A DNA stretch of 64,000 nucleotides from Cyanophora paradoxa CCMP329 (taxonomy: Eukaryota; Plantae; Glaucophyta), in NCBI GenBank assembly GCA_004431415.1, contig QPMI01000651.1, positions 1 to 64,000 on the forward strand, read 5' to 3'. Below are positions 16,189 through 41,994 of this stretch, piece by piece. Each line of letters starts with the position of its first letter. Within the stretch, counting starts at the first letter, position 1. Both the position numbers and the translations under genes were made by a program. The notes beneath the pieces were generated by a model, which saw nothing but the letters and a program-made list of their open reading frames with translations, did no database searches and had not been told where the DNA came from.

Positions 16189-16244
16189 CTTTTACTTTAA
16201 GGGAACATATTATTTTTGGGCGTTTTAAACGCATTTCGCATTTT

Positions 16245-16436
16245 TCAGGTTCTGATAATTCGCACATTCGTGCCTTTGGGGACATATACATTCACTGTGT
16301 CGAGTCTGCTTGCATAAACACGCTTCTTTTGATAGGTTCTACCATAACCTGCTCTGATCTTTGCAATATAATCCGCCACCTCTGCAATATCATTCTTTTC
16401 GACAAGCTGCTGCCGAATTTCATCAAAATAATCCAT
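16245..16436 (-). CDS. Small hypothetical protein (63 aa)
   Basis: ORF upstream of polB on the same strand, preceded by AAAATTGA. Confidence 0.55.
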   Translation of the reverse strand: MDYFDEIRQQLVEKNDIAEVADYIAKIRAGYGRTYQKKRVYASRLDTVNVYVPKGTNVRIIRT

Positions 16437-16484
16437 TTTCTGTCTTAGTCAAGTGAAATACGCAACGATCCCTTAAATCGCCAG

Positions 16485-16492
16485 TCAATTTT
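16485..16492 (-). promoter_or_regulatory. AAAATTGA, Mimiviridae-type early promoter motif
   Basis: Exact motif 48 nt upstream of ATG 16436. Confidence 0.55.
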
Positions 16493-16580
16493 TGTCACAA
16501 CACAACGATTTTCGATACGTTTTTATATTGTCCGATTAAGAATCGAAACAGTCATCGACCCACAGGGGGGAGTCTGTGGT

Positions 16581-16730
16581 TAATTGGGTGTGACGCCTGT
16601 GACGCCTGTGACGCCTGTGACACCTGTTTTCAGAGGTTTGTAGATTTTTGAAATTTTAAAAAGTTTGAAAATAGGCGTCACAGGCGTCACAGGCGTCACA
16701 CTCAATTAAAAAGGTGTCACAGCTGTCACA
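16581..16730. repeat. Inverted iteron-like array (TGTGACRCC x4, 49-bp AT-rich core, GGCGTCACA x3 plus 2 more); candidate replication origin
   Basis: Directly visible, 70 bp downstream of the primase-helicase stop codon. Confidence 0.85.
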
Positions 16731-16799
16731 CAAACCATTTACAGTAAGGTTTTTAAAAAATAAGAAATTCAATCAGTATTAGAATCGATTCTGTTTTGT

Positions 16800-19163: not shown

Positions 19164-19357
19164 TTCGAAAATCGGGGGCTTCTTATCCTTAATGGAGAAA
19201 TTAATTTCTCCGGATCCTTGTCATTTTTTGGCGCCTAACCTTTAAATACCTTTGGGTTCTCCGATTGGCGCTCGATGTATGGTAATGATCCATCGAAAAG
19301 TCGATTGATCATGGTAACAAAAAGGATTCAGCGGATATCTGGGACTTTGGGGGCGGT

Positions 19358-19585
19358 TCAGTATTTTCTGGGACGACCTACTGGGCGTTTGACTGGATTA
19401 TTGGGATCCATCTCAGCAGCTTTCCTGCGATAATATCGTTCCAGTGCCTTTTTACGATATAATTCACGAAATTCCTCATCTTGATAACGTTTCTGGAAAT
19501 ACAAGCGGTCATACAACCTTTTCCTCTCATTGGGATCCATTTCGCTCATTGCAAGTTCGAATTCGACCACAGATTCAGTTTCCAT
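19358..19585 (-). CDS. Small basic protein with C-terminal AT-hook
   Basis: RYQDEEFRE...YYRRK...KRPVGRPRKY; paralogues at 46058-46288 and 51290-51481. Confidence 0.75.
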   Translation of the reverse strand: METESVVEFELAMSEMDPNERKRLYDRLYFQKRYQDEEFRELYRKKALERYYRRKAAEMDPNNPVKRPVGRPRKY

Positions 19586-19786
19586 TTGATATGTTCCTTA
19601 TATTTGGACGAGAAAATAATTTGTCCGGGTTCACCAATCAAACACACCTTACCCTTAAATCCCTTGTCATTTTTTGCAGATCGAGACCAGTTCCTGTCTA
19701 CGCTTTTTTATTGCGTCTTCTGTTGCATATTCAGCGGATTTCCTTTCAAGGATAGCATAGATCTCAGAGAGACTGAGCATTCGATA

Positions 19787-20020
19787 TTAATTACCGAGAT
19801 TTAATTTCGGATCTGTGAAAGATACAGAGCGTCGCCTCACTGTCTCTGTTTTAATATGCTCCTCGAAATCCACCGAGTCTGTGGATAATCGCCTACCGCC
19901 AGATCCATGACTTTCAGTGTCAGAGAATTCGATTTCGACTTTTGTATCACAGCAACCACTGTGACAATTGCTCACAATGTGGAGATTAAACATTTCAATG
20001 ATTTTTCGCAAGAAATCCAT
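19787..20020 (-). CDS. Small Cys-cluster protein (SNCHSGCCDT)
   Basis: Orthologue at 46314-46580 (SNYKCSCCDT). Confidence 0.7.
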   Translation of the reverse strand: MDFLRKIIEMFNLHIVSNCHSGCCDTKVEIEFSDTESHGSGGRRLSTDSVDFEEHIKTETVRRRSVSFTDPKLNLGN

Positions 20021-20047
20021 GATGCTCTCTCTCTTAAAGCGAGATAA

Positions 20048-20782
20048 TTATAGCCAAACTCGTCGTTTATATACTGTTGGGGCAACACCTTTATCGACCT
20101 CTGATTTGGTAGCACCAGGTTCAATGGTTCCCTTCTGGGTTTTGGTCTTCATCTCATCAACTGCCTGCTCATCAATTTGAGTCTCTTTTTTACCAATGAA
20201 CTGCTTATCTGGAAGACCAGTGATTCCCATTCTATACACCTCCTTTCGCAGCATCTCCTTTAATTTCGCTCTCTCTTTCTTCTCAGAGACATACTGTTCA
20301 AGTGCACTCGATTTCGCTTCCAGATCTTTAAGTTTCGCAGTCATTTCGTCCCATTGGGCTTTGGGAATTCGGTGGATGTTTTGAGTTGGTGCTGTCTTGT
20401 AGGTCACCTCACCAGCCATGGATTGAATTACCTTGTCTGATTCTTTGGAGACACCTTCACCTTTGCGAGCCAGTGAGAGATCTTGGAGACCCAGTCCTTT
20501 GTCATCAGCAGCACCAATAATTCGACGAGCACCTTCACCAACTGCCTTCATCTTAGAGGTTTCGGGCGAAATATTGAGTTGATCACTGGTGGATGTCTGG
20601 GGCGCTTTATCATCTGGTGATTCTTCGTAAGCAGCATTGAGGGGATCTTCTTGTTGCTGTGATGCTTTAACTTCATTGACACCATTGAATTTCATGGGCT
20701 CTGTGTTAATAGAACCGGTTCCAGAGGATGCAGAATATGACATAGCACCAGCAGGAACACCAACTTTGCGTTTGGAAGGCAT
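20048..20782 (-). CDS. Conserved 244-aa protein in the capsid module (possible core protein)
   Basis: Highly similar orthologue of identical length at 45295-46029. Confidence 0.85.
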   Translation of the reverse strand: MPSKRKVGVPAGAMSYSASSGTGSINTEPMKFNGVNEVKASQQQEDPLNAAYEESPDDKAPQTSTSDQLNISPETSKMKAVGEGARRIIGAADDKGLGLQDLSLARKGEGVSKESDKVIQSMAGEVTYKTAPTQNIHRIPKAQWDEMTAKLKDLEAKSSALEQYVSEKKERAKLKEMLRKEVYRMGITGLPDKQFIGKKETQIDEQAVDEMKTKTQKGTIEPGATKSEVDKGVAPTVYKRRVWL

Positions 20783-20833
20783 TGTATATTTATTAGAAGC
20801 AGAGATTATTTTATAAACCTCTCTTATATCGCA

Positions 20834-21592
20834 TCAGTTTATTCGAATGAACACCACTCTTGACCTCTTTGGGGCTTCCTCTTTCTGTGGAGGTGGTAAT
20901 TCGTCCTCTTTCTTTTTGGGCTTCCTGTGGAACCGAGGAAACTTAAAGTCTTTAACGAGTTCCGCTTTATCAACGTAGTATTCCACCGAATAATTCGCAG
21001 AACTCCAAATGAGAAACTGATAGGAGTGAACGTATTCCTCAAACATCTTATAGAAAGCGTCTTTATCCCGCATGATATTGTATTCTTCTTCAATGGCTTC
21101 CAGTTCTTTGCGATTGGCGGCACTGAGGAACATTGCATAATCCGAATTGACGCGAATGGTTGAAGAAACCTTACGCAGTTTCTGAGTTATGCAGAAAATT
21201 GTAATCGCCGAGTGGCGGCCGCGCGAATACAGAGATCCAATAATTTTATCACGGGTAAGGTCTACAATCTCATTGTCTATAAGATCATCGAGAACAACAC
21301 ATAATTGATTAACGGGTTCTCCTTTCTCAATTTTCTCTTGTCTTTCATCGAGAAGTTTAGCGATGTAAGGCGCATCCCATTTACCGAGCTGTAATGTTGC
21401 GACATCATCCCAAAAATGATTGAATGATGTCCCACTTATAACAAGAACAACATCTAACTTTTTCGCATCGTGAAGTTGTTTTAGCCAATATTTTACGGCT
21501 TCTGACTTGCCCGTCGCGCTTTTTCCGATTGCTAATACGCGAAAAGGGGGTTTAATCATCTCAGCAGCATTAAATTCGGGAACGTCAGACAT
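20834..21592 (-). CDS. A32/FtsK-HerA genome-packaging ATPase
   Basis: Walker A GKSATGKS, Walker B VVLDD, SRGRH arginine motif, ITQ, IRVNSDY. Confidence 0.95.
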   Translation of the reverse strand: MSDVPEFNAAEMIKPPFRVLAIGKSATGKSEAVKYWLKQLHDAKKLDVVLVISGTSFNHFWDDVATLQLGKWDAPYIAKLLDERQEKIEKGEPVNQLCVVLDDLIDNEIVDLTRDKIIGSLYSRGRHSAITIFCITQKLRKVSSTIRVNSDYAMFLSAANRKELEAIEEEYNIMRDKDAFYKMFEEYVHSYQFLIWSSANYSVEYYVDKAELVKDFKFPRFHRKPKKKEDELPPPQKEEAPKRSRVVFIRIN

Positions 21593-21654
21593 GGCTTTGT
21601 AGATCTTTCTTATTAAAGATAGATAAAAATAACGAAACGTTACTGATAATGGTT

Positions 21655-23022
21655 TTACAGATTAATTCGTCGGAGACCATCTTTGTCAACAATAATGAAA
21701 CTGTGCATGAGAGCACGAACATTAACTGTGAGTGCCTTGTCAGAAGGCATGTATAGAGTGAGGAAAGAAGAGGAGGAGTTCGTGAGATCAACATATCCAG
21801 ACTGGGCAATGTTGCGAATCGCTTTCTCTCCATCCACACAGAATGGTAGACCACTGAGGACATATTTGTCTGCAACCTTGTCCATATTCGAGCACTTGAA
21901 GGCATCCGCAATTAATTCGGCACCTTTGAGGAGAGGGATGGGCTCAGTAGCATAGAGACGTTGACCATTAATTTCAACAGTGAAAGTAATGTCTTTCGAG
22001 TTAGCATACGTTTTCAGAACACTGTGAGCACCAGTAGCACTATCAATACCTTCATAATCACGAACTGAAACAAGAAGACCATAGACAAGACCCGAGATCT
22101 GTGACAGATTAATACGATTGGGTTGCGCATTGCCTTTTGCAGCGAAATTGATGCTATCAACGAATCCAATATCCAGAGCAGGGATAGCCATACCAGTGGT
22201 CTTCACCTTCTCAATGACAGTAGCAAACAGCTCATCAGAAACATTAATAGCATGCATGTAAAGACGAGGAGAAGTGACTTTAATTTCAGGGGTTGTTCCA
22301 GAGATGGTGAAAGTGGTGATCTGTTGACCTACATGGGCAAGGGTTCCATCTGTGAAATTTCCAAGTCCATCATCAGCAGTTGCATCAACAGTTCCAACAG
22401 CAGTTGTAAGTTCACGACCACCATAAGAAGTCTCAACATAACCCTTTCCAGCATCCTTGAACCAGACAGTTACCACCATTTCTCCTGAGAGAGCACCAAG
22501 AGGGAGGTAGTGGTTTAGCCATGGGACGGGGATTTCAACAAAGAATGAACCACCAAGTCGGTTGGTTCCATGAGCAGGGATACCATGAACCATACCCATT
22601 GAACGCTTCTTTTTGGCGAGTTGATCCTCCGAATAATAGACAAGAGGGAAATGAGCAAGGAAATCAGAAGGCACATGGAATGTGTAAGATCCATAGGTAA
22701 TTTCAAGTCGAGAGACAAGAGCACCAACTGGGCGAACGTATCCATTGCGAACAAGGTCGGTATCACCAGCAAAAGTGATGGCTGGAAGGTCAAAGGCAAG
22801 TTCGAGTTTTCCACAGAAATTGTAGCGAGGGAGCTTGAAAGAAATGCGATTTCCAGCATTATTCTCGAAAGTGTTGCTTGGGTTCACAACAACAAGAACT
22901 GGCTTCGACTTGGATTCAAGACCAAGCATGAGAGAGTTGTCCAGGAAGAACGCCTTGGCTTCTTCCGGGGTTGTTAGAGCTTCTTTCAGAGAAAGACGTT
23001 GGAGGGTCGAAGTAATATCCAT
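21655..23022 (-). CDS. Major capsid protein (double jelly roll, PLV type)
   Basis: 455 aa from MDITS, beta-rich (ISFKLPR..F..KLELAFDLP; LVSRLEITYG), located between penton and ATPase, highly conserved in element 2. Confidence 0.85.
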   Translation of the reverse strand: MDITSTLQRLSLKEALTTPEEAKAFFLDNSLMLGLESKSKPVLVVVNPSNTFENNAGNRISFKLPRYNFCGKLELAFDLPAITFAGDTDLVRNGYVRPVGALVSRLEITYGSYTFHVPSDFLAHFPLVYYSEDQLAKKKRSMGMVHGIPAHGTNRLGGSFFVEIPVPWLNHYLPLGALSGEMVVTVWFKDAGKGYVETSYGGRELTTAVGTVDATADDGLGNFTDGTLAHVGQQITTFTISGTTPEIKVTSPRLYMHAINVSDELFATVIEKVKTTGMAIPALDIGFVDSINFAAKGNAQPNRINLSQISGLVYGLLVSVRDYEGIDSATGAHSVLKTYANSKDITFTVEINGQRLYATEPIPLLKGAELIADAFKCSNMDKVADKYVLSGLPFCVDGEKAIRNIAQSGYVDLTNSSSSFLTLYMPSDKALTVNVRALMHSFIIVDKDGLRRINL

Positions 23023-23076
23023 GATTATCTCTTTTATTATACTGCAACATAAAAAATTCACCAATGATCCTTGATT

Positions 23077-24087
23077 TTACGCAAAACTCGCAATTACAGG
23101 ATAAGATGGATGGGTTTCCGCCATCCTCCTCTTGAAATATTCATACACAGGATCACCAGCAGGTTCATCACCATATCGAATTTCGAAGGTGAGGTGGACA
23201 GGTTGACCCTCGAAATCAATTGGTTCATTGACTGCATTCACAATATCAACCGAAAATGTGGAAAGTCCCAGATTCTTGTTATAGTATTTATAAATCGGAT
23301 GGGCTTCTGTCGAATTATAAACGACATGCTCACCATAATCTTTATCTGGAACAACGATTTTGTGGAAGTATCCAGTGAGGAGACCATCACCACATTGAAC
23401 CAGATCACCCAACTCCTTTACTCTCACAAACAGAACACTATCCCTGGTCTTTTCAGGTTCAAATGAAGATATGATACCATGCACCATCGACCCAGTAAAG
23501 ATACCATCAGTCAGAGTATTATAAACTTGTGATTGGATTGGGGTGTTACCATATCTCCCAGGATCAAGACCAAGCAGTCGAGCAGAACTCAAAAACCTCT
23601 GAATCTGCGCCTGGGTTGGGTTTATTGCAGTTGAGAAAGCCAGGTAAAACGGTATGGTGGAATGGAATATTACTCGTTTCAGTGTATCATCCCATTTACA
23701 GCGAATTGCTACTGGTGGCTCTCTCAATGCAAGTTTGGAGTTAATTACATTCACCAGTTGTTGGTGGTTTTGAATGGGTGTGCTGCGACTTATCACAATG
23801 TGCTTCCATTGCTCATAATCGGCAGCAGGTCGATCAGTTGGAATACCAGTGCTTCCTGCACCAGAAAGATATTCAGACCAATAAAGGTAGATTGCATTAT
23901 CAATTGTCACATCTCCTACTTTGGTTTCACCACTCACCATGGGAATGCTGTTATAGAATTCTGCTGAGACCAGTCTCACTGCTCTTACAAATTCATATGT
24001 GCTGGGGAGGCGAGCAATAAAACTCGAAGTAGGTCCATCTCCCGAAATTGTATTGAAAGAGCTCACTTCAATGTAATCCACAGGCAT
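23077..24087 (-). CDS. Minor capsid (penton-like) protein 1
   Basis: N-term F..RLP.....VRAVRLVSAEFYNS and C-term LSTFSVDIVNAVNEPIDFEGQPVHLTFEI are typical single-jelly-roll penton signatures. Confidence 0.8.
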   Translation of the reverse strand: MPVDYIEVSSFNTISGDGPTSSFIARLPSTYEFVRAVRLVSAEFYNSIPMVSGETKVGDVTIDNAIYLYWSEYLSGAGSTGIPTDRPAADYEQWKHIVISRSTPIQNHQQLVNVINSKLALREPPVAIRCKWDDTLKRVIFHSTIPFYLAFSTAINPTQAQIQRFLSSARLLGLDPGRYGNTPIQSQVYNTLTDGIFTGSMVHGIISSFEPEKTRDSVLFVRVKELGDLVQCGDGLLTGYFHKIVVPDKDYGEHVVYNSTEAHPIYKYYNKNLGLSTFSVDIVNAVNEPIDFEGQPVHLTFEIRYGDEPAGDPVYEYFKRRMAETHPSYPVIASFA

Positions 24088-24115
24088 CTTCTTTTATCTA
24101 TAAACATATATTAAA

Positions 24116-25048
24116 ATGATTCGGCTGGTCAATATAGATAGCAGAGACCGATCAGATGGACAAATAGAAAACTCCTACAAAGTTTCACTCACAACCCCAG
24201 TGACCAAACCAAGAGAATGTCGAGTTTTGTATGCAGAGATCCCCAACAGCATCTATAACTCCATTGGAACAGACCACCTTCTTGTCAGATTCTACTACCA
24301 AGGCATCTCTGAAACCAAGCAGGTCTTCCTTCTCCCAAGTGGTTACATAAATCAAGGTCATTTCGGGGTCACCACTCCATATAATTATGGTCTGAATTTC
24401 ACATTTACTGGGAGCAACAATCTCACATATGCATTCAAGGTCTACTACAACCCTACCTCCTACAAATTGGAGTTTTACAGTAATGTTCAATTCGATATGG
24501 TTGCATCTACACAGAGATTGGGTAAACTTCTTGGTGTGAGTTCAGTGGAGTGGGTGGCTTCCACTGAACAGATTTACGATTTCCCAGAGTCTGCAAGGTC
24601 TTTATATGCCCCCGAGAATTTCCTTTATTTCGCAGGAATACCAATCACCCCAAACCATCCCCAATGGGGAATCACATTCACAGGATATGAATTCGAGGCA
24701 TCTCGCTTAAACTACAAGTTAGAAGCTTCCAAGATGACAGATATGAATGCAGAACAGTATTTATACATGCACATTAAAGAACTCTCCCCATTTGCTACAA
24801 ACCACAATATTGTCCCAAGATCACAACCACAGAATCAAGGGGCGATTCTCAGATTGCAGTTAAGTAAAGATATTGGGCAGTATGTTTATCACAGTGGAGA
24901 GCACAGTGAATACATAAAAATAACCGATCGAAACCTGGTGATTAGAGAGTTAACAGTTGAGTTTCGAGATTATTATGGTGATCTTGTAGACATGAATGGG
25001 ATTGACAACTCATTCCAGTTGGAGTTTCTGGCTATTGGTAATGATTAA
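24116..25048 (+). CDS. Minor capsid (penton-like) protein 2
   Basis: NIDSRDR...YAEIPNSIYN...YLYMHIKEL...ELTVEFRDYYGDLVDMNGIDNSFQLEF. Confidence 0.8.
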   Translation: MIRLVNIDSRDRSDGQIENSYKVSLTTPVTKPRECRVLYAEIPNSIYNSIGTDHLLVRFYYQGISETKQVFLLPSGYINQGHFGVTTPYNYGLNFTFTGSNNLTYAFKVYYNPTSYKLEFYSNVQFDMVASTQRLGKLLGVSSVEWVASTEQIYDFPESARSLYAPENFLYFAGIPITPNHPQWGITFTGYEFEASRLNYKLEASKMTDMNAEQYLYMHIKELSPFATNHNIVPRSQPQNQGAILRLQLSKDIGQYVYHSGEHSEYIKITDRNLVIRELTVEFRDYYGDLVDMNGIDNSFQLEFLAIGND

Positions 25049-25298
25049 ACCGATCCTGATAGAAGAACTCTCCATCTGTCTCGAAAATATTAAGAAGGGG
25101 ACTCTTTGGATCTTCTGTATACCATCGGCGAATTGTCTTATCCCATTTAGCACCATTCCTTTTCAAGAATCTACAAAGAGTTGATCTCCTTGTAATTCGC
25201 AATCCCATCTCTTGAAAGATCTCATAATGATCTTGCATTCTATTCACAATCAAGATGTAAGTCCCATGGAAATTGTGATATTGCTGGTTAATCGGCAT
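25032..25298 (-). CDS. Small protein with DUF5710-like motif
   Basis: ATG 25298 (MPINQQ); LKRNGAKWDKTIRRWY; AAAATTGA 32 nt upstream. Confidence 0.55.
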   Translation of the reverse strand: MPINQQYHNFHGTYILIVNRMQDHYEIFQEMGLRITRRSTLCRFLKRNGAKWDKTIRRWYTEDPKSPLLNIFETDGEFFYQDRFNHYQ

Positions 25299-25330
25299 CT
25301 TTCCTTTACAGCATGATGGGAAATCGTTTG

Positions 25331-25338
25331 TCAATTTT
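25331..25338 (-). promoter_or_regulatory. AAAATTGA, Mimiviridae-type early promoter motif
   Basis: Exact motif 32 nt upstream of ATG 25298. Confidence 0.55.
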
Positions 25339-25490
25339 TGGCGAAACGAGAGTATCTCATGAGATAGATGAGAGAATAACAGGTGTGTTTTCAGGGTTGG
25401 AGAAATCGGAGAAACATAGAGTATTGCGATTTCCGAGTTAGTTGACACTGAGAAATTCAGAATTTCAGATGGTCTTACTGAAATCCGTCT

Positions 25491-25928
25491 TGTGACACCT
25501 ATTTAATTGACTGTGACGCCTCTTTAATTGACTGTGACGCCTGTGACGCCTGTGACGCCTACTTTCAAACTTTTTAAAAATTTTCAAAAATGACAGACTT
25601 CTGAAAACAGCCGTCACAGCCGTCACAGGCGTCACACCCAATTAAAAATGGAATCTATCTCTCTTACTGAGATATTCAAAAATATATTCTTGTCTTACTG
25701 AAATCCGTCTTGTGACACCTCTGACACCTACAAAACACTATCCATTAATCCACCTTTCCGAAAATGCGAAGTTGTCTTACTGGAAATGGTCTGCAATTTC
25801 GCTGTGACACCTAATTTAATTGAGTGTGACGCCTGTGACGCCTGTGACACCTACTTTCAAACTTTTTAAAATTTTCAAAAATGACAGACTTCTGAAAACA
25901 GGCGTCACAGCCGTCACAGGCGTCACAG
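25491..25928. repeat. Two further copies of the TGTGACGCC inverted iteron array, inverted relative to 16581-16730
   Basis: About 25525-25645 and 25815-25928 match the reverse complement of 16581-16709, including the AT-rich core. Confidence 0.88.
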
Positions 25929-26040
25929 ACATTCCACCCCTCTTACTGACTTTCTCAAAAACAAAACTATCTCTTACTGAATATCATTTGAATACTACCT
26001 GTCACACTTGATCTCAATTATTCTGTTTTATAGAACATAT

Positions 26041-26295
26041 GCAATCTAATCGATTGTTCAATTGGAGACCATGCAACTCTGTGACACTTTTTCGGTGCAA
26101 AAATGTAAATCCGCAATTCCATCGATTGTTTAATTGGACGTGATGCAGTTCCGATATATTCCAATAGAAAATCGCGCAATCTTCTCAATTGTTTAATTGG
26201 ACATAATGCAACTCTGTGACACTTTTTCGGTGCAAAAATGTAAATCCGCAATCCCATCGATTGTTTAATTGGACATAATGCAACTCTGTGACAGT
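26041..26295. repeat. Subterminal ~65-72-bp imperfect direct repeats (~4 units)
   Basis: Recurring GCAAT...ATTGTTTAATTGGAC..ATGCAACTCTGTGACAC. Confidence 0.8.
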
Positions 26296-26619
26296 TTTTG
26301 CGTTTTCCGATACAAAATGGGCGGTGGTCTACTTCAATACCGATGAGATATATCGAGTTTATGCGAATTTATGCGAATTTATGCGAATTAATCGCGATTA
26401 TATCGTTCTTTAAGTAGTTTAATGTTAATCAATCGAAGTTATATATGTAATCGACAAAGAACATAATCTATCGATATTATATCGATTGAATCAATCGTGA
26501 ATATGCATTAAATTAAACGCGTTTATCATTTTTAATACAAAATTTGCATTAATTTATACAAAGTTTGCATAAAAAGTTAAAGAAATTAATCGATAAATAT
26601 GTATTTTAGTATTAAATTA

Positions 26620-26714
26620 ACACATATTGAAAAACGAATTTAAATCCAGAGTGAATCGAGATCGCGAAGCGATCGAGATGAACGAGGGATTTAAATTCGT
26701 TTTTCAATATGTGT
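26620..26714 (+). repeat. Right terminal hairpin of element 1
   Basis: Perfect 28-bp stem 26620-26647 / 26687-26714. The 39-nt loop folds further via three tandem GA:GA mismatches to a GC-GAA-GC tip. Confidence 0.93.
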
Positions 26715-27029
26715 CTACATGTATATAGCAAGCGTCACAAATTCGAATTCGTATCTGAAGCGCTCGGAACTCAGGTTTCGTTTGTTCGGTTTCCACGGTA
26801 TACGGCTGCGCTTCCGCTTGCTACCTGGCCGCTTCCTTTATCGGTACTTTATCAGCCGCTTTCCTTTATTCGCGATCGTACTGATCATGAATCCATGAAT
26901 GTAGATAACCCCTCGGCAATTCCCTCTTATAGCCGAGTGTGGTTCGTAACTGGCCCTCTAGCATGCGCATGACTAGTACTTGTAATTTGCTATAACTTTC
27001 TCCCTACATTGTATAATCAAGCCTAACTA

Positions 27030-27860
27030 GTACTCCCCCCCGAAGCGGATGTTGTCGTCGATACGCGTGACCGGTGGTCTACCACGAACACTCTTGATGT
27101 GTACGCCAAGTGCTCGGTAAGAGGGATATACACGATTACGCTTTCTCGCACGATTGTCTCGCCCTTACACCTTGCACCTGACTTCCGCACTCGCTCGCGA
27201 TTGCAGGTCCCCATCACGCTGAACGACGGGGTGCGTTGCTATACATATATATCCTAGCTGTAGGCATGGGTTCTCATCACGACGCTACGGTCCGGCCGAG
27301 CCGCTGGAAACAGCGTCGCGTTGGGAGGGGGGCACCCCCTTCGAATTCCTGCCTGGCCGGAACTATCCGAGCAACAAAAGTTTTCTAATTGCGACGCCGC
27401 AGTGGTGCCTTCGGATCAACCGTACAGACAACAAGCTTTTCAGTGTGAGTGAAGGGTTGACTTCGTTGGCTTACGTTGCAATTGTGCTGATTCCAAAGGG
27501 AGATGGCAATGAACACTTGGGGCATCGTCGGGAACAACGCCTCGCCGACGGGGACCGGTACGGGAACAAATAGTCCATTCAACAACGTCGGCCAGGTCAA
27601 CAATCTGCATGCTCGGCAGCGCAGCGGATCGATGGCCCGATTGATTCTGTGATCACAGGCGATGCACACGTTCGCTCTCACCGCTTCTACCGCCGTTCTC
27701 TTCGGTGCAAGTGCGAAGAGCGATCACGAGAGTGCACTCATGATGTGGCTGGGAAAGCGAAGCCCCAACCACCGCGTCCAGCCCGGCTGCAGCGGGGATG
27801 GATATGGGGCAAATTGCGGCCTCGCGTCGAGCTACAAGCCTCTCGTCGGTTCGTGTTATG
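27030..27860 (+). CDS. Probable short host exons between the two elements
   Basis: GC-rich stretches bounded by AG/GT, e.g. cag|VPITLNDG|gtgc and tag|AWVLITTLRSGRAAGNSVALGGG. Same style as 57200-64000; exact model unresolved. Confidence 0.4.
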
Positions 27861-28171
27861 TACGGCTGCAAGACACTGATAATGATCATGAGCTTCCCCG
27901 AATGTTTTCGAGGAAACTCGTGACTGACTGACCTTGGCACGGACTTGGCACGTGACTGACCTGCTGTGTTAGGTGGTTCTTCGTTTCCTCGCTGGCTCGG
28001 GCACAATCTTGGAGAAGTCATGTTTGCGGTAAGTAGACTTGGTAACGTAGATTCGTGTTGAGATGAAATCGCTAAATGGCTTTTTCGTCGATCTGCAGCA
28101 TCCCTGCATAACCTCTGGGGATCGCTTAGCCTGTGATAACTGGGTAGCACAGGAGCAATACGTCATCCGTG

Positions 28172-28326
28172 ACACATAGGGATACCCCTGATCCAAGCCC
28201 TCCGGCCTTCGGCCTACAGGCTTGGATCAGGGGTATCCCTATGTGTGCGCGTTTCAGGTACTAGGGTAGTAAGCATTTATTTCAGGTCTTAGGGTATTAT
28301 TCATGTCTTTTTGGCACCAGTAGGGG
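28172..28326. repeat. Left TIR of element 2 with terminal hairpin
   Basis: Perfect 28-bp stem 28172-28199 / 28219-28246. 28181-28326 matches the reverse complement of 56661-56806 with about 14 mismatches. Confidence 0.93.
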
Positions 28327-28356
28327 TTTAGAAAGAATTTCCAACGCCCTCAACAT

Positions 28357-29200
28357 TTATGGCAAAGGGTCACTTCCTCCAATGGGATTGTATAAATTTG
28401 TGGTTAGATATTGACCATATCTATTTCCTCTGGCTATTTCATCATTTCTTTCAGCATACATTATCACTGTGTAAGTCCCTTGCTGGGTAGCTCTTATAAT
28501 ATATTGGTCATCTTGTGTGTCAAGAAGTGGCAGTGAATGGAAAGCAAGTCCGAAATTATCTACTGGGACTACTTGGACAGTAATACGGGGTCTTGCTCCA
28601 TCTGTTCTTCTACATAATGCGTAAATATCAGCAGGCAACGTCTCAGTATATCTATAATGATTTCCCAAAGGCTCTAAAACATCAAGAACAGCAGTCTGAA
28701 GGTTGATAATGATTGTGTTGATTTTGATAATGTAAGGCTCATTCATTCCCGGGACATATGTCCTGATTCTTGTATTCAGATCATCTGGATTGGGTTGATC
28801 ATTTACTAATAAAGGCGCTCCAATAATTCCACCAACCCTTAAACCATCTCCAATATAGGCACCTCCTGACCTACATTTAATTGCTCCCTTCTTGCTTCGT
28901 AGGCAAAATTGGTTACCTTGTTATCATCATTGTAGCTGTCAGGATCCCATGAAATGCGTTGAAATTCGCATTTGTTACAAGAAGTTTAGTAGTTTTAACG
29001 ACCCCATTATTTTTGTCACATCTTAACTCTTTTAGTCTTAGCATGTGAGTGTCACCAAAAGTATTCAGAGTTGGGGCTATCTCTGTGGATTCGAGACCAT
29101 CAATATTATCAATAATAGCATGCTGTAAGACGTGGTTAGCTGGAGCAGCTAATGATAGTTGCGCTGTTAAAATGCGCTCTGGTGGTGCTGGTGCTGCCAT
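28357..29200 (-). CDS. Putative virion/fibre-associated protein A (frameshifted)
   Basis: ORFs 28913-29200 and 28357-28746 are collinear with 618-1447. Confidence 0.75.
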
Positions 29201-29219
29201 TTAATATACTGAAACATAA

Positions 29220-30065
29220 TTACGGAATGGGATCATTCGGAAATGGTTCATTGTAGAAATTCGAGACCTGCGAATCAGGATTTATACAGTTGGCAACAGC
29301 CCATGCTGCTTCATCATTACGATATCCAAAAATTAAAATATCATAACCCCCTACCTCTGATGCCCAAAAATCGAAACTGTTTGGTTGTGTGGCAAGATTT
29401 CTTGTGATCCATCCACGCCCACCATGGCCTACTGCTTGAACAAAGAAAGTATAACCTTCTAATCCTCCATTCTGAGAGCGACACATAGAATACATTGCCT
29501 TTGGTAGAAGCTGATTAGCCAATTTCCAAGGTCCAGCAATACCTTGGGGTTGTGTGGCATTTTGCGTATTTACATTAGCTCTAATGATACCAAAAGCATA
29601 CGGGGAATCCCCGCATGGAAGAAACATGCGAATTCTTTGGGGATTATCAGCATGTTCAGGTAAAGTGTCCGGAAAATCATTAAAGGCAGCAGAAGAGCCA
29701 AGCATTCCCGATACTCTACAGCCACCACCAATTATTGCTCCTCCTGATCTTATAACAGCAGCAGCCCTTGTATTGTCAAATTCAAATGCTTTGATATCTA
29801 CACCGTACGCATCAGGTTGTCCATTTGCTGATTGAAAATTCGCATTCGTTACAAGGAGCTGAGTTGTTTTTACCACACCCGAATTTTTATCCGCGCGTAG
29901 TTCTTTTACACGAATCATGCTGTTTTTATCAAAAGCATTACCAGAATTGGCTCGTTCTGTGGATTCAAGTCCACGAATTTCATCAGACACTTCGTGTTGT
30001 CTAAAATGAATTGCTGGACTCCCCAATGCGTAAACTGGTAATTGGACTCGATTATATTCGCCCAT
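29220..30065 (-). CDS. Putative virion/fibre-associated protein B
   Basis: Intact 281-aa ORF, orthologue of 1471-2317. Confidence 0.85.
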   Translation of the reverse strand: MGEYNRVQLPVYALGSPAIHFRQHEVSDEIRGLESTERANSGNAFDKNSMIRVKELRADKNSGVVKTTQLLVTNANFQSANGQPDAYGVDIKAFEFDNTRAAAVIRSGGAIIGGGCRVSGMLGSSAAFNDFPDTLPEHADNPQRIRMFLPCGDSPYAFGIIRANVNTQNATQPQGIAGPWKLANQLLPKAMYSMCRSQNGGLEGYTFFVQAVGHGGRGWITRNLATQPNSFDFWASEVGGYDILIFGYRNDEAAWAVANCINPDSQVSNFYNEPFPNDPIP

Positions 30066-30105
30066 TGCTTCTTTTACTAAGAAGGATAGAAAAATAAACG
30101 AATAT

Positions 30106-33100
30106 CTATGCTACCATCTTCCCTGTTGCTATATAAGTCATTTGATAGTGGAAAAGTCCAATGCTTTCATTGTATTCTCTATTTGCCGAAATTGTTGCAT
30201 AAATAGTAAATGTTGTTGTTGTGGAACTTGTGACACCATATACCAATACATATGAACCACCATTATACCCATCTCTTAAATTGAGAACGACTGCTGGGGC
30301 TTCTGCAAACGCTTTTGGGAATGTGACAACTTGTGGAAATCCCCAATGACCCGGACCTGTGATTGCTAAGGATTTTGAAAAACTCCCTGTCTGTATATAC
30401 TGGTCTTTATTGACCCGTTGTTCTGAGACAAGTTTCGCAATCTTACCATTGTCTTTTTCATCCATCGCATAGTATGCTCTTGCGTAAGCATTGCCACGAC
30501 ATAATAGTGTTTTATCGTATATGTTCGCGGAATTGTGGAAGAACCACTGTTCGTAGAATAAAGGAGAGTCTGGTTGGTAAATTTGACCGGATCCCACATA
30601 CATGGTCTTATTTGCTGTGATCGTATTTGCTACAAATGGGTCTAAGGTTGGGAAATCTGTGATTTCCGATTTCGTGTGAGTATGGGCGAAATCTGTTATA
30701 TTTGCCTTTGTGTGAGTATGTGCAAAATCGGTGATATCTGATTTAGTGTGAGAGTGAGGTCCGACAGTTGTGGAAGCTGTTGGTTTCCCGTAAATGTTAT
30801 CCCAATGCAAGAAGCCACTGTGTGATGATACAGCAGGATTTTTACTCCAACCAACAAGACCCACAAGGTAAATCCTTCCAATTCGCCCTTGAACACCAAC
30901 TTTACTCAGCCCTTCACAATTTACCCCGACATATTGCCTATACTCTACACTTGGGTCACTACCAGGAGAATAAGCATTTACTCTCGAAAGTGTATAAGAA
31001 TTTGTTGATGGATAAACTCCCACAACATCAAAGTATCTACTATTGTATTGACACACATAGAAGATATAGCATGTCTTCATTCCCGCGGGACAGTCCATAA
31101 CATCTTGTAGCCACTACAATCTTCATCACCAGAAGCCCATGTGTTTGCTCCTGAGTAAGGAGATATGAATGTAAAAAATCTCCAATCACCTGTGCGGTCT
31201 GTGGAAATACCACTTGTAGCATCGAAATTTGTGGGTGCTGTATATGTTGGTTTATTAATTAAATCATCATAATTTCCGCTTGTCGCAACTGCTGCTAAGG
31301 TGGGTCTATCCGTAATATGGCTCCATAAATGTAGATGTGGTGAAGGTGTGAATGTTACAGGCTTATCTGTTATACTATTCCATGTGTGTGTGTGGTCAAA
31401 ATCTGAAATCTCATCTTTTGTGTGAACGTGTGCAAAATCGGGTATCTCTAATCGGGAATGTGTGTGGGCAAAATCTGTTATTTGTGATTTTGTGTGAGTG
31501 TGTGTGGGTATCTCCAAATTGCTAAGTGTTAATCTGTCTTTGCCGATAATATTCAGAATTTCCCGAGTTAAGATTGGTTGAGTATTGGGGAATCCATACA
31601 TTTGTTGGATGTAATACCTTACTTTTTGTTTTTCTGCTGTGGTTAATGCTCTGTTGAATACAATAATCTCAGCAATGCTTCCCGCAAATATTGTTCCAAA
31701 TCCAAAATCGTTTATAGTGGAATCAGGTAAATAATTATTAATTCCTGTGAGAGTTCCCACATCGACACCATTTAGCCCCACTGTGTAGCTATCAGAAGTT
31801 ATTGTTTGGTCTGAGTAATACCATTTATTTAGCAAAGAGGGAACTGTGACAGCAATTGGAGGTTGTGTTACATCATTTATAGCGAAAGTAGTTGTCCCTA
31901 ATCTTGTTGAATTATTTGCTCCATAGTAGGCAAATCGCGTTGGTGATGTTGTTTTTAGCACACGCAAATGTGTATGAGAAGCACCTGTTTGTGTTAAATG
32001 ATATCTTCCAATATAGAAGAATGTCAAACCTTGTGACCAATCAATCGTTCTTGTCATCGTTGAGTTTGCTGAGTAGTTCCCTGAATCACTTGTTAAAGTC
32101 ATCTGATTATTTATAGCGATATTGGATGAGTAGTAGGGACTTCCTGTGGAACTGACAGTTATAGATGGAACGATTGAGGAGACCCTATTGTAAAGAATTG
32201 TTGATGCTGCATTTTGACCATGAACCCCTGATGCTTTCCATGCAAAAATACAATTGGGAATATTAGAAGCTGGATCAAAATTGGAAGTGATTCGATAAAA
32301 ATTTTCACTATAAGATTCTAAATAGCTTCCGGTTCCCATTTGAATTTTCCCTCCAACTGTTAGGTTGCTTGTCACAACCAAGTTGCTGGTGATGGTTCCA
32401 CCTGTGAGAGGAAGATAATTAGATAATGCTACATTAAGTTCAGGTTCAGTCACATATACATCAAGTTCTGATTTTGTCACATAATCTTCAAGAACTGCTG
32501 CAAGTTCTGTATCGTCTACATAATTTTTGCTTTCAAGGTAATCATCTGTGACAACACCTGAAAGGGTCTCATTGTGTAAATTTTTTGCCGCCATTCTCTG
32601 ATTGACTTCTAAGGCGCCACCTGCTAATGTTTTGATCCACGCCATCTCACATTTCCCGAAATCATCTTTTGGTTGTCCCACAAGTGGTGCGTAATTGAAT
32701 TTCGAGCGACTAAATATTATTTTCGGTCTTGATCCATCGGTTGCGCTTACATCTGTAACGTTTACTTGTAAGATGGCGTCTTTATCATCATAACTCACTG
32801 GATCTAATGGAAGTGGAGGTAAACCTGCTGTTAATGGGATATCTTCATTATAATAACTTGTCAAAAACAGACCTGGTTTAGTATCTATAACTCCCACCCC
32901 ACCTGCTGAAACCATTTGAGATCTTGAAGGTTGTTTAATGTATAATTCGCCATCCATTGTGGTGCCTGCGTCTATTCCTTTTCGGTGCAAATAGTATTCA
33001 CTTAATTGTAATCTTTCAGGAATGGTGTCACTCTGATAGAAACTAACCCCATAAAATCCGTCACCATTTACTAAATCACCTGTTGATGCAAAACGTGGTT

Positions 33101-36100
33101 TTTCATCTATTTCACTCCATGGGTGTTTGTGGTTAGAGTTTGTGATTTCGGAATAATCATGAGTGTGTGAATCTGGTGGAAAGGTTAACGGAGGATTTGT
33201 GATATGCTCCCATAAATGAGTATGGGCAAAATCTGTGATCTGATCTTTGGTGTGAGTATGGGCAAAATCTGTGATCTGATCTTTGGTGTGAGTATGGGCA
33301 AAATCTGTAATTTGATCTTTTGTGTGTGTGTGGGCGAAATCTGTGATCTGATCTTTGGTGTGAGTATGGGCGAAATCTGTGATCTGATCTTTGGTGTGAG
33401 TATGGGCAAAATCTGTGATCTGATCTTTGGTGTGAGTATGGGCAAAATCTGTAATTTGATCTTTTGTGTGTGTGTGGGCGAAATCTGTTATTTGATCTTT
33501 TGTGTGAGTATGGGCGAAATCTGTGATCTGATCTTTGGTGTGAGTATGGGCGAAATCTGTGATCTGATCTTTGGTGTGAGTATGGGCGAAATCTGTGATC
33601 TGATCTTTGGTGTGAGTATGGGCAAAATCTGTAATTTGATCTTTTGTGTGTGTGTGGGCGAAATCTGTTATTTGATCTTTTGTGTGAGTATGGGCGAAAT
33701 CTGTGATCTGATCTTTGGTGTGAGTATGGGCGAAATCTGTGATCTGATCTTTGGTGTGAGTATGGGCAAAATCTGTAATTTGATCTTTTGTGTGTGTGTG
33801 GGCGAAATCTGTTATTTGATCTTTTGTGTGAGTATGGGCGAAATCTGTGATCTGATCTTTGGTGTGAGTATGGGCAAAATCTGTGATCTGATCTTTGGTG
33901 TGTGTGTGGTTTTGTATCCAACCTTGAACCACATTCGATGTTGGATGATGAGGAAGATTAGCATTACTTGTTACAGTGAGATAATCGATCACTGTATCGG
34001 GTGATGTGATCTTTAAACCTCTGTAAATGGTCAGAGGTTGAGTATTGGGGAATCCATACATTTGTTGGATGTAATACCTTACTTGTTGTTTTTCTGCTGT
34101 GGTTAATGCTCTGTTGAATACAATAATCTCAGCAATGCTTCCCGCAAATATTGTTCCAAATCCAAAATTGTTTATAGTGGAATCAGGTAAATAATTATTA
34201 ATTCCTGTGAGAGTTCCCACATCGACACCATTTAGCCCCACTGTGTAGCTTGTAGAAGTTATTGTTTGGTCTGAGTAATACCATTTATTTACCAAAGAGG
34301 GAACTGTGACAGCAATTGGAGGTTGTGTTACACCATTTATAGCGAAAGTAGTTGTCCCTAATCTTGTTGAATTATTTGCTCCATAGTAGGCAAATCGCGT
34401 TGGTGATGTTGTTTTTAGCACACTCAAATGTGTATGAGAAGCACCTGTTTGTGTTAAATGATATCTTCCAATATAGAAGAATGTCAAACCTTGTGACCAA
34501 TCAATCGTTCTTGTCATCGTTGAGTTTGCTGAGTAGTTCCCTGAATCGCTTGTTAAAGTCATCTGATTATTTATAGCGATATTGGATGAGTAGTAGGGAC
34601 TTCCTGTGGAACTGACAGTTATAGATGGAACGATTGAGGAGACCCTATTGTAAAGAATTGTTGATGCTGCATTTTGACCGTGAACCCCTGATGCCTTCCA
34701 AGCAAAAATACAATTGGGAATGTTAGAAGCGGGATCATTACTGGCTGTAATAGAATACCATTCTCTGTAAAGTTGGTTCATGGTATTAAAGTTGCCTGAG
34801 CCAATCGTTAGAATTCCATTCACTTTTAGGTTGCTTGTGATTGTTCCACCTGTAAGTGGTAAATAGTTTGAAGAAATATGGTCTGTAATAGCTATGGTAT
34901 CTGCCTTTGGAGCTAACCAATTTTGAACGACATTCGAAGTCGTTAATGGAGCAATCCATTCTTGAACCACATTTGATGCTGTTAATGTTGCTATCCATTC
35001 TTTAACCACATTCGATGCTGTTAATGGAGCAATCCATTCTTCAACCACATTCGATGCCGTTAAGGGTGCTATCCATTCCTGAACTACATTCGATGCTGTT
35101 AAAGGTGCTATCCATTCTTCAACTACATTGGAAGTGGTTAAAGGTTCTATATTGGTATTGATACTGTCTATGCTTTCTTGTATCTGTGTAATCTGGGCAT
35201 TGATGGCAGTTATTTCTGCCTCTTGAAGGCTTGAACTTGTTTGGAAATCTTTGATAATAAAACCACCTCCTGGTGCTGGTGCTGTATATTGGAGGTTGTT
35301 GGCTATAAGACTTCCTGTAACTCTCAGGCTGTTTGTTTGTAGAAGAGGTTTGTTAGGGTCACTGGCGAAAGGATTGTCTAATGGCTCAGGATAGCCGTAT
35401 TTTTGGAGGAGATAACTTCGTATGTTGTCCTTCACGATTTCTGTTGTTGGTTTAATAATGACTATTAGCTCTGCTAAATCTTGTTTGGAGGTTGAAGAGC
35501 CAATACGACTTTCAGTAACAAGGTTATTGGGGAACATGTTTGTAACATTTGAAACACTTCTATTGCTACCATTGATCCCAAATGTAACAGTGGAAGGAGA
35601 GACTGTTACTTCATAGAGTGTCCATGTCGTCATTTCAGAGTATGTAATTTCTGCTTTTGCGTTACTTGGTGAAGTGCTTTCACCTAATCCTGCTGCTCCA
35701 ACCCCATTAGAAACCTGAATATAACAAGTCGCACCATTGTTCCATTTATTGATGCTCCAATTTGTGGTTCCATAACTCAAAGATAAAACGTTCTCTACAT
35801 TTGGAGGTGCTGTATCTGTGAATTTCGCGACGAAAAACACAGTTAAATGTTGCTGTGAAGTTTGGCTCATGAAAAGTTCACACTCAGCCCCCCACGTATT
35901 ATAGGCTGAAAAGTTGAAGTTGATTGTAGGATACGAATTAAAATAAGGTTTGTTGTTAGGACCTCCATTATTCTTAATTTGTGTCGAGTTCCCAGCAACA
36001 TTACCAAACCCAAGAAGAAAATTCGGTGTCTCAGGGTTATTATCAAACCAAACGTCTCCTGCTCCGTTTCCAAGTCCACTCACTATCGTTCCATCTTTCA

Positions 36101-39100: not shown

Positions 39101-39443
39101 TGTACATTGAAAATCAAACGGCCACTATCACACCTTGATGGTATGTCTGGATGGGTTCCACTTGGTTTGAGTTTTCTCGGTCTCCTTCTGGTTGCCTTGA
39201 TCTCTGCTACTTGATTGGCTTTCACATTGCCCACACTAAAAGCTATACTGACATCCTCCTTGTCTGGATCGGTCTGATTTAAGGAAAGGGCATGCTCCCT
39301 TGATTGAGTCTTTGAAGAACCGTCAGAGCTGTGGTCGATTGATATTGAACCTTTAACTTTTATATTATCAAAGTTCACATGCTTTGTGCTGCTGGAATTA
39401 TCATCTTGAATTGTTTCCAGATTAGGGGGTAATTAAAGCTCAT
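30106..39443 (-). CDS. Giant fibre protein (~3100 aa, frameshifted) with four LamG-like domains, 19 HxH repeats and an H-type-lectin/gp53-like tip
   Basis: Start MSFNYP at 39443, the same as element 1. Joins ORFs 38848-39378, 37190-38818, 31077-37208 and 30106-31098. C-terminus IQTGS...VTFPKAFAEAPAVVL...TTTTFTI...YIATGK. Confidence 0.85.
31576..32277. repeat. ~700-bp near-identical direct duplication of a LamG-like fibre domain (partner 34036-34737)
   Basis: Offset 2460 bp, only scattered substitutions. Confidence 0.95.
33225..33908 (-). repeat. 36-bp coding tandem repeat x19 (HTHTKDQITDFA)
   Basis: 684 bp; nucleotide variants are all synonymous. Confidence 0.95.
34036..34737. repeat. Second copy of the ~700-bp fibre-domain duplication
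   Basis: Matches 31576-32277. Confidence 0.95.
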
Positions 39444-39486
39444 GGCTTTTACTATATGGATTTATAAAATTCCTTATAAGTATTAG

Positions 39487-41965: not shown

Positions 41966-41994
41966 TTTAATATATGAATATAGATAAAAGGAGA

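What the first reader, a model, noticed from the sequence alone, without database searches (positions are those of the whole stretch)
26620..26714. Strand-specific terminal hairpins with tandem G-A pairs and GAA triloops
Seen: element 1 ends in a perfect 28-bp stem whose loop parses as a-GA-gt-GA-atc-GA-gatcgc-GAA-gcgatc-GA-gat-GA-ac-GA-g. That gives three tandem GA:GA mismatches between Watson-Crick blocks, capped by GCGAAGC. Element 2 has a different sequence but the same 28-bp stem length, the same ACACATA...CC arm ends and a C(GAA)G tip, always on the strand whose 3' end is terminal. Known: tandem sheared G-A pairs and C(GNA)G triloops are very stable in ssDNA, and the complementary strand cannot form them. 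Inference: a selected ssDNA structure for terminal replication, end protection, packaging or integrase recognition, unlike plain Polinton AG...CT TIRs. The terminal ACACA suits sliding-back protein priming.
Basis: partly seen in the sequence, partly recalled or inferred. Interest (0 to 1): 0.85.

Follow-up and report, generated by a model that had tools for sequence, protein, structure and literature searches.

The report
G·A-capped hairpin ends of algal virus
Two virus-like elements inserted in a likely algal genome end in a 28-base-pair palindrome whose tip keeps G·A mismatch motifs on the 3' strand in every variant read, so the free virus's exposed ends are predicted to fold into a nuclease-resistant cap that likely templates protein-primed end copying, much as at Streptomyces telomeres.

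Summary
Real and selected. 26620-26714 is the right terminus of a multicopy endogenous polinton-like virus (double-jelly-roll capsid, A32 ATPase, rve integrase, protein-primed-type PolB, primase-helicase). It has a perfect 28-bp stem, and all 8 mismatches in its tip are G·A (0 of 200,000 shuffles do this). A second element keeps the 28-bp stem with 12 compensated pair changes. Contigs from public runs gave three more complete tips. In 5 of 5 tips the cap is C-GNA-G and every internal loop is bracketed by G·A, while N and the paired blocks vary. All lie on the 3'-terminal strand; no flipped isomer was seen. This points to a DNA fold-back cap on exposed 3' ends. The best mechanism (0.45) is Streptomyces-like protection, self-repair and protein-primed patching; the main rival (0.3) is self-priming or closed hairpin ends opened by the integrase. 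Terminal palindromes in polinton-like viruses are already reported (Halocafeteria preprint, 2026); my searches found no report of the G·A code there. The scan noted this hairpin before on another piece of this genome (e1-10595593). Nothing was tested on free virus DNA.

The parts
26620..26647 (+). Element 1 terminal hairpin, inner arm (28 nt)
   Evidence: pairs perfectly with 26687-26714
26648..26686 (+). Element 1 hairpin tip (39 nt): AGA/GAG loop, two GA/GA tandems in pyrimidine-GA-purine context, GCGAAGC cap centred at 26667
   Evidence: 8 of 8 mismatches G·A or A·G; 0 of 200,000 shuffles
26687..26714 (+). Element 1 outer arm; its 3' end is the element terminus
   Evidence: summed contig depth in X2 falls from about 16,000 (26705-26710) to 191 (26717-26722) and to host level, 77, by 26729
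56741..56806 (+). Element 2 right terminal hairpin, outer arm short by 9 nt; differs from the left stem by one compensated pair (arm position 20)
28181..28325 (.). Element 2 left TIR (shared part with 56662-56806, 145 nt, 91%)
1..26714 (.). Element 1, polinton-like virus, left end outside the window (GC 0.40)
28172..56806 (.). Element 2, polinton-like virus of about 28.6 kb (GC 0.42)
26715..28171 (.). Single-copy host spacer between the two elements (GC 0.53)
   Evidence: one 1511-nt contig 26688-28198 in 4 of 4 runs at host depth
12907..16188 (-). Element 1 protein-primed-type PolB: candidate terminal-protein region with conserved DSY (187-189), GG (208), vOTU-like Cys235 and His336, EndoVII-like insert, shortened exonuclease region, intact palm motifs
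   Evidence: fold of the N-terminal part not confirmed (pLDDT 38)
51630..54725 (+). Element 2 protein-primed-type PolB, 45% identical, same motifs (DSY 195-197, Cys243, His344)
16800..19163 (-). Element 1 primase-helicase (Prim-Pol, weak; D5_N; SF3)
48698..51175 (-). Element 2 primase-helicase (PriCT-2, D5_N); helicase 33% identical to element 1, N-terminal part not alignable
11323..12741 (-). Element 1 rve-type integrase, D-D-E residues present
   Evidence: (E 0.002, below Pfam cut-off)
54737..55978 (+). Element 2 rve-type integrase, 52% identical
   Evidence: (E 1.3e-5, below cut-off)
21655..23022 (-). Element 1 double-jelly-roll major capsid protein
   Evidence: Foldseek to PBCV-1 capsid, E 4.8e-17
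43060..44430 (+). Element 2 major capsid protein, 87% identical
20834..21592 (-). Element 1 A32-type packaging ATPase (element 2: 44484-45266 +)
16580..16709 (.). Internal repeat palindrome just downstream of the element 1 primase-helicase gene; candidate internal origin (inferred)
48501..48682 (.). Internal repeat palindrome just downstream of the element 2 primase-helicase gene; candidate internal origin (inferred)

Best explanation
The palindrome is the end of an integrating polinton-like virus, and its G·A-coded tip is predicted to fold the exposed 3' strand into a nuclease-resistant DNA cap that likely serves as the template for protein-primed copying of the end. Shown: position at the termini, 28-bp stem with full compensation, a conserved G(N)A code on the 3'-terminal strand, and the gene set. 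From published chemistry: GNA loops and sheared G·A pairs stabilise that strand, whereas TTC loops are nuclease-sensitive. Inferred steps: (1) replication of the free linear genome, from an internal primase-helicase origin or by strand displacement, leaves the 3' end single-stranded; (2) it folds back and rebuilds a 28-bp duplex with the terminal sequence; (3) the terminal-protein domain of the PolB primes at that 3' end and copies stem and tip, which keeps the tip in one orientation; (4) trimmed 3' ends are rebuilt by copying the inner arm, which would explain why stem changes are always compensated; (5) the rve integrase joins the completed duplex ends to host DNA.
For: Covariation: 12 of 28 stem pairs differ between elements 1 and 2, none broken, and 1 more pair differs, compensated, between element 2's two ends. 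Five complete tips of 17, 19, 29, 29 and 39 nt (two in the window, three from loose-end rows) all have a C-GNA-G cap and internal loops bracketed by G·A, with A, G or T in the middle. Stem length is 28 in the 4 cases where it can be counted (two window ends; loose lengths 57 = 29 + 28 and 45 = 17 + 28). Only GNA of the GCNNNGC loops forms the mini-hairpin, and TTC loops are nuclease-sensitive (PMC13037366, passages). Internal palindromes of the same elements have mixed mismatches, so the code is specific to ends. No flipped tip: no strand-change joints, and X8 record 9 runs unbroken from the interior to 26648 (inference for 31-letter contigs). Both polymerases keep Ser/Tyr before the last strand of the N-terminal region, GG, and vOTU-like Cys and His, where bioRxiv 10.1101/2024.03.18.585575 (sections 6 and 7 and passages) places the linking residue and protease. 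An N-terminal homologue carries DNA_pol_B_2. Both elements encode a primase-helicase beside a long internal palindrome. Precedent: G·A-closed hairpins on 3' overhangs, protein-primed patching and fold-back repair in Streptomyces (PMC4513846 passages; PMC5449611 abstract and section 20).
Against: No free genome, 5' protein or single-stranded end was observed. The terminal-protein fold was not confirmed (pLDDT 38). A perfectly paired 3'-OH is also an ideal primer for ordinary extension, which favours the rival. In Halocafeteria, terminal palindromes go preferentially with elements that lack pPolB. Streptomyces telomeres have several short palindromes, not one long stem. Folding energies differ by only 1.4 and 0.7 kcal/mol between strands. 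All tips come from one organism label; the absence of flipped tips rests on partial tables (24 of 181 and 12 of 21 loose-end rows shown), and integrated copies may be a selected subset of free ends.
Confidence: 0.45

Rival explanations
1. Self-priming or closed hairpin ends. The folded 3' end primes synthesis and leaves a covalently closed, G·A-capped end. The integrase (or the EndoVII-like domain) nicks at the stem base, 28 bp below the tip, and joins that 3'-OH to host DNA; repair synthesis unfolds the hairpin into the palindrome seen in the genome.
For: The 3'-terminal base is paired in a perfect primer-template geometry. A fixed 28-bp stem with conserved ACACATA at its base fits a nicking site. 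The Halocafeteria preprint proposes hairpin priming and finds palindromes mostly with non-pPolB replicases and particular rve integrases. Some bocaparvovirus termini occur in one form only, yet are thought to use rolling-hairpin replication (PMC8242256 passages). Both PolBs carry an EndoVII-like insert.
Against: Copying a closed hairpin and resolving the junction should give flip and flop tips; none was seen (partial). No HUH/Rep, protelomerase or RuvC-type family was found among 41 + 46 ORFs scanned. Terminal-protein and vOTU motifs are kept in two polymerases only 45% identical. EndoVII/HNH inserts are common in polinton pPolBs and are read as homing elements.
Confidence: 0.3
2. The hairpin is mainly a recognition signal for integrase, packaging ATPase or primase, formed by cruciform extrusion or transient melting, and has no part in end replication.
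For: Mini-hairpin sequences occur at primase sites such as phage G4 ori and RSF1010 ssiA. Stem ends are conserved while the middle varies.
Against: The design survives replacement of the primase N-terminal domain between the two elements. Tip sequence and length vary from 17 to 39 nt, so only structure is kept. A recognition role alone does not explain why the folded strand is always the 3'-terminal one.
Confidence: 0.17
3. Neutral by-product of repair or template switching at integration, an assembly artefact, or an RNA hairpin.
For: Fold-back chimeras occur in long-read assemblies (own knowledge). The Halocafeteria authors mention accidental annealing. Rfam gives a weak microRNA-precursor-like match, 28.7 bits against a gathering score of 80.
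Against: Identical multicopy short-read contigs; covariation of non-canonical pairs across five tips; 0 of 200,000 shuffles; the GNA mini-hairpin is a DNA motif. The Rfam match is far below threshold, as are those to internal palindromes.
Confidence: 0.05

Closest known systems
Terminal palindromes of endogenous virophages (subtypes 1, 2, 5, 6) and PLV subtype 4 of Halocafeteria seosinensis (bioRxiv 10.64898/2026.07.28.741278; section 7 and passages read)
   Same: Palindromes at the outer ends of TIRs of rve-integrating Polisuviricotina; hairpin role in replication proposed.
   Different: There mostly with non-pPolB replicases; here both elements keep pPolB plus primase-helicase. No G·A code or strand asymmetry is mentioned in the text I read; figures and supplements were not seen.
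Streptomyces telomeres (Tap/Tpg end patching; PMC4513846, PMC5449611, PMC7205883; passages, abstract and one section read)
   Same: GNA loops with sheared G·A pairs on the 3' strand, compensatory changes, internal origin plus terminal-protein priming, fold-back repair of trimmed ends.
   Different: Bacterial; several short palindromes over 160-300 nt; Tap/Tpg proteins. Here a single 28-bp stem with a G·A tip, a eukaryotic virus, a PRD1-type pPolB, and integration into host DNA.
Parvovirus terminal hairpins (PMC8242256 passages; PMC4513846 for the rabbit-ear comparison)
   Same: 3' fold-back with mismatched bubbles; some termini found in one orientation only.
   Different: ssDNA viruses with a Rep/NS1 nickase and a single-jelly-roll capsid (own knowledge); no Rep found here; no Y- or T-shaped ears in these tips.
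Polintons/Mavericks and glaucophyte PLVs (PMC12220804 passages; bioRxiv 10.1101/2024.03.18.585575)
   Same: pPolB with terminal-protein and vOTU-like N-terminus, rve integrase, A32 ATPase, double-jelly-roll MCP, TIRs; patatin plus F5/8 genes as listed for glaucophyte PLVs.
   Different: Ends are AC...GT inside a hairpin, not AG...CT (recalled norm); no maturation protease found; extra primase-helicase; capsid with only 5 relatives among 1.84 billion proteins.
d(GCGAAGC) mini-hairpin and tandem sheared GA (PMC13037366, PMC8163305; passages)
   Same: The exact cap and mismatch chemistry.
   Different: Described from oligonucleotides and phage or plasmid origins, not from ends of eukaryotic dsDNA viruses in the passages read.

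Membership tests
Polinton-like virus (Polisuviricotina) | Double-jelly-roll major capsid protein | tested here: met
   pTM 0.71; PBCV-1 capsid, E 4.8e-17
Polinton-like virus (Polisuviricotina) | A32-type packaging ATPase | tested here: met
   E 3.9e-9 and 8e-11, above cut-off
Polinton-like virus (Polisuviricotina) | 14-40 kb unit with TIRs, integrated in a eukaryote | tested here: met
   element 2: 28.6 kb, 145-nt TIR at 91%; single-copy host spacer
Polinton-like virus (Polisuviricotina) | Minor capsid (penton) protein | not tested
   candidates 23077-24087 and 24116-25048 have no Pfam match; not folded
Canonical Polinton/Maverick | Protein-primed PolB with terminal-protein and vOTU domains | tested here: inconclusive
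   palm motifs, Cys/His and DSY kept; homologue P0007 hits DNA_pol_B_2; own Pfam hit and terminal-protein fold not obtained
Canonical Polinton/Maverick | rve integrase | tested here: met
   Pfam rve E 0.002 and 1.3e-5, both below cut-off; D-D-E residues aligned
Canonical Polinton/Maverick | Adenain-type maturation protease | tested here: not met
   no Pfam hit among 41 + 46 ORFs, no motif in the elements; element 1's left part lies outside the window
Canonical Polinton/Maverick | AG...CT termini (recalled) | tested here: not met
   termini read AC...GT
Canonical Polinton/Maverick | 5-6 bp target-site duplication | not testable with these tools
   element 1's left end is outside the window, element 2's right end is cut, and no genome is held
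Streptomyces-type telomere | GNA loops and sheared G·A pairs on the 3' strand | tested here: met
   (sequence pattern; structure not probed)
Streptomyces-type telomere | Several tightly packed palindromes in the last 160-300 nt | tested here: not met
   only one GNA-capped hairpin in 25900-26714 on the 3' strand
Streptomyces-type telomere | Terminal protein covalently bound to 5' ends; internal origin leaving 3' overhangs | not testable with these tools
   needs free virus DNA
Parvovirus-type rolling hairpin | Rep/NS1 HUH nickase | tested here: not met
   no such Pfam family among ORFs scanned
Parvovirus-type rolling hairpin | Flip and flop isomers of the tip | tested here: inconclusive
   none seen in window or contigs; tables partial; some parvovirus ends also occur in one form
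Halocafeteria-type palindromic PLV ends | Palindrome at the outer end of the TIR, with rve integrase | tested here: met
Halocafeteria-type palindromic PLV ends | Preferential link to non-pPolB replicases | tested here: not met
   both elements encode a pPolB-type polymerase as well as a primase-helicase

The most novel reading that the evidence does not exclude
These viruses use a Streptomyces-type telomere, evolved independently in a eukaryotic DNA virus: an internal primase-helicase origin leaves 3' overhangs that fold into a self-repairing, sheared-G·A cap and are patched by a terminal-protein-primed PolB. This would be a third replication mode for Polisuviricotina and would explain why some carry two replicases.
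Probability: 0.33. Interest if true: 0.82.

Novelty: new variant of a known kind. Interest (0 to 1): 0.62.

Why it matters
How most polinton-like viruses copy their ends is unknown (abstract of bioRxiv 10.64898/2026.07.28.741278), and that preprint asks for tests of terminal palindromes. Covariation of non-canonical G·A pairs turns a palindrome into a strand-specific prediction: the 3' strand must be single-stranded and folded at some step. The host appears in many public runs and the family is multicopy, so end sequencing of free DNA, and oligonucleotide probing of five natural tips, can decide between protein-primed patching and closed hairpin ends. It also supplies natural, selected examples of (GGA)2-, (GAA)2- and mixed GNA-type DNA loops, and a rule for finding such ends in other elements.

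Tried and rejected
No whole genome is held, so no genome-wide census of termini or target-site duplications. Relatives elsewhere: none in viral contigs with the capsid, ATPase, P0002 or P0005, none in metagenome contigs with alignment A1; a pattern for the conserved stem ends found 0 matches in both collections. Run X17 (organism B) gave nothing at the hairpin. No RNA holder listed, which is no evidence on expression. A tip-only motif hit 74 viral loci; only 1 of 74 (L046) sits on a stem of 15 bp, and it looks like a phage, not a relative. The PolB N-terminal model was too poor to test the terminal-protein fold (pLDDT 38; Foldseek no match at E 0.001; VIA rows only for a helical hairpin at residues 1-72). 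The protein atlas could not be used. No solved structure matched PolB by sequence. ViennaRNA cannot show the strand difference; the two parameter sets gave identical numbers, so I count them once. Rfam matches are far below threshold. No tRNA genes. Literature searches without a hit: polinton + sheared + hairpin, 0 papers; polinton + palindrom + termini + G-A + single-stranded, 0; polinton-like + terminal hairpin, 3 papers, of which only the Halocafeteria preprint is on point among the two I opened. Subscription journals and preprint supplements were not searched.

Full report
Observation. A perfect 28-bp stem encloses a 39-nt tip. In the symmetric register all seven internal mismatches and the loop-closing pair are G·A or A·G. 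None of 200,000 shuffles of the tip gave only Watson-Crick or G·A opposed pairs, and of 20 palindromic centres in the window with at least 16 of 24 pairs only this one has G·A mismatches alone. Two corrections: the lowest GA/GA is part of a 3x3 purine loop, and both strands form the long stem in ViennaRNA (-34.3 and -32.9 kcal/mol). The claim of strand specificity therefore applies to the tip and comes from published chemistry. A review states that current parameters do not explain mini-hairpin stability (PMC13037366, passages).

Context. The window holds two AT-rich elements in GC-rich eukaryotic DNA: element 1 from before position 1 to 26714, and element 2 from 28172 to 56806 with a 145-nt TIR. 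Each encodes an A32 ATPase, an rve-type integrase, a D5-type primase-helicase, a PolB with an EndoVII-like insert, fibre-like proteins and a patatin-F5/8 gene. The 455-aa protein folds like the PBCV-1 double-jelly-roll capsid. No maturation protease or Rep-type nickase was found among 41 + 46 ORFs scanned (5 of the 51 listed, overlapping repeat arrays or host DNA, were left out). These are polinton-like viruses. The capsid has one relative at 60% in the first search and five in the HMM search. The host is likely a glaucophyte alga: this rests on my recall of the id style of P0001, on PMC12220804 listing F5/8-patatin fusions in glaucophyte PLVs (passage), and on unchecked earlier notes; I did not test it directly.

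The hairpin is the true, multicopy end. In four public runs the spacer 26688-28198 is a single contig at host depth. In run X8 a 94-nt contig matches 26620-26713 with no difference at depth 2852 against 40; in X2 a 73-nt contig has 3256 against 77; summed depth falls to near host level just after 26714-26716. Depth is no exact copy number, but tens of identical ends are indicated, and a long-read artefact is excluded.

Covariation. Stems: elements 1 and 2 differ at 12 of 28 pairs, each changed on both arms; element 2's left and right stems differ at one further pair, also compensated. Tips: besides the two window tips, loose-end rows gave three more complete ones. One has GGA/GGA and GAA/GAA loops and a GAA cap (X2, rows at 26647 and 26684; the 26647 row is a consensus of two contigs at 0.95 agreement). 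One has GGA/GGA and GGA/GTA loops and a GTA cap (X8, 26647). One, on an element-2-type stem, has the same AGA/GAG loop as element 1 and a GCGAAGC cap (X2 and X8, 28219, read on the other strand). A sixth, partial tip begins A-GGA (X8, 26649). In 5 of 5 complete tips the cap is C-GNA-G, every internal loop is bracketed by G·A pairs with zero or one middle base, and GAG precedes the outer arm, while length (17-39 nt), the middle base and the paired blocks vary. The non-G·A oppositions are the middle positions of these loops (G·G, A·A, G·T) and a T·G pair at the stem top in three tips. Only GNA among GCNNNGC loops forms the mini-hairpin, and TTC loops, which the complementary strand would have, are nuclease-sensitive; tandem GA shows very strong sheared stacking (PMC8163305, passages). 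Loose-end lengths of 57 (29 + 28) and 45 (17 + 28) give a 28-bp stem again. Limits: 24 of 181 and 12 of 21 loose-end rows were shown, all from one organism label; one further stem variant (26615) could be read on one arm only.

Orientation. The G·A strand is 3'-terminal at element 1's right end and at both ends of element 2. For the GTA-cap variant, X8 record 11 has AT-rich interior-like DNA 5' of the stem and depth about twice the host, as expected for both ends of one element (inference). No strand-change joint was listed, and X8 record 9 runs from the interior to 26648 without a break, which a common flipped isomer would have caused in a 31-letter graph (inference; not testable this way in X2, where another variant breaks the contig).

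Mechanism. A structure selected only on the 3'-terminal strand means that strand is single-stranded at some step. Both polymerases keep a DSY loop between a predicted helix and strand at the end of the N-terminal region, a GG, and vOTU-like Cys and His. bioRxiv 10.1101/2024.03.18.585575 places the linking Ser/Tyr of PRD1-type terminal proteins in such a loop and the protease after it; here the usual Gly or Pro neighbour is missing and the model is of low confidence. Both elements also encode a primase-helicase beside a long internal palindrome. This matches the Streptomyces design: internal origin, 3' overhangs folded with sheared G·A pairs, protein-primed patching, and repair of trimmed ends by extension on the fold-back. 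Protein priming predicts a fixed tip orientation, and fold-back repair predicts always-compensated stems; both are seen. I give this 0.45. The main rival (0.3) is that the paired 3'-OH primes directly, giving closed hairpin ends that the integrase opens 28 bp below the tip; it explains the fixed stem length well and agrees with the Halocafeteria link to non-pPolB elements, but needs an extra rule to avoid flipped ends. A pure recognition role (0.17) does not explain the strand rule, and the design survives a primase-domain swap. That the tip is a selected DNA fold-back of some function I put at about 0.9.

Known and new. Terminal palindromes in virophages and a PLV, with a hairpin-priming model, are in a 2026 preprint. 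Sheared-G·A telomere hairpins are known from Streptomyces and compared there with parvovirus ends. I found no paper joining the two (open-access library only; figures and preprint supplements unseen). This scan reported the same 95-nt hairpin on another piece of this genome (e1-10595593, unreviewed) and favoured self-priming; that is not independent support. Verdict: a new variant of a known kind, interest 0.62.

Noticed in passing
L046:2978-3044: A 93-kb phage-like IMG/VR contig has an intergenic hairpin with the same G(N)A-loop tip design on a 15-bp AT-rich stem; possibly an origin. 1 of 74 loci matching the tip motif.
   Followed up: partly
window 16580-16709, 25523-25927, 48316-48682, 56563-56662: Repeat-array palindromes next to each primase-helicase gene, with inverted copies near the right end; they bracket different gene blocks in the two elements. 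Repeats bracketing replication modules are described in bioRxiv 10.64898/2026.10.13.758929 (passages).
   Followed up: partly
window 16800-19163 and 48698-51175: The two primase-helicases share the helicase (33%) but their N-terminal primase parts do not align, while capsids are 87% identical.
   Followed up: partly
window 12907-16188 and 51630-54725: Both PolBs lack well over 100 residues of the exonuclease region present in two homologues, so proofreading is likely reduced.
   Followed up: no
window 56806: Element 2's right end lacks the last 9 nt of the TIR; no remnant or target-site duplication was found nearby. Real decay or assembly error was not tested.
   Followed up: partly
window 26715 and 28171: A C follows the outer arm at both window junctions and at several contig junctions (one 32-nt contig through CTA at depth 265 against 40), but not at all (X2 record 5 stops at 26714): possible target preference of the integrase.
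   Followed up: partly
window 56308-56550: Frame-broken S-adenosylmethionine decarboxylase-like gene next to element 2's right TIR (Pfam E 3.4e-9).
   Followed up: no
window 20052-25027 vs 41040-46025: The capsid module is inverted relative to the fibre module between the two elements (76% identity over 5 kb).
   Followed up: no
window 27224-27400: A short high-depth host repeat lies inside the single-copy spacer.
   Followed up: no
L005, L043, L025, L064: Tandem 7-nt arrays of the GCGC-GNA type in viral contigs, able to form long G(N)A-loop hairpins in many registers.
   Followed up: no
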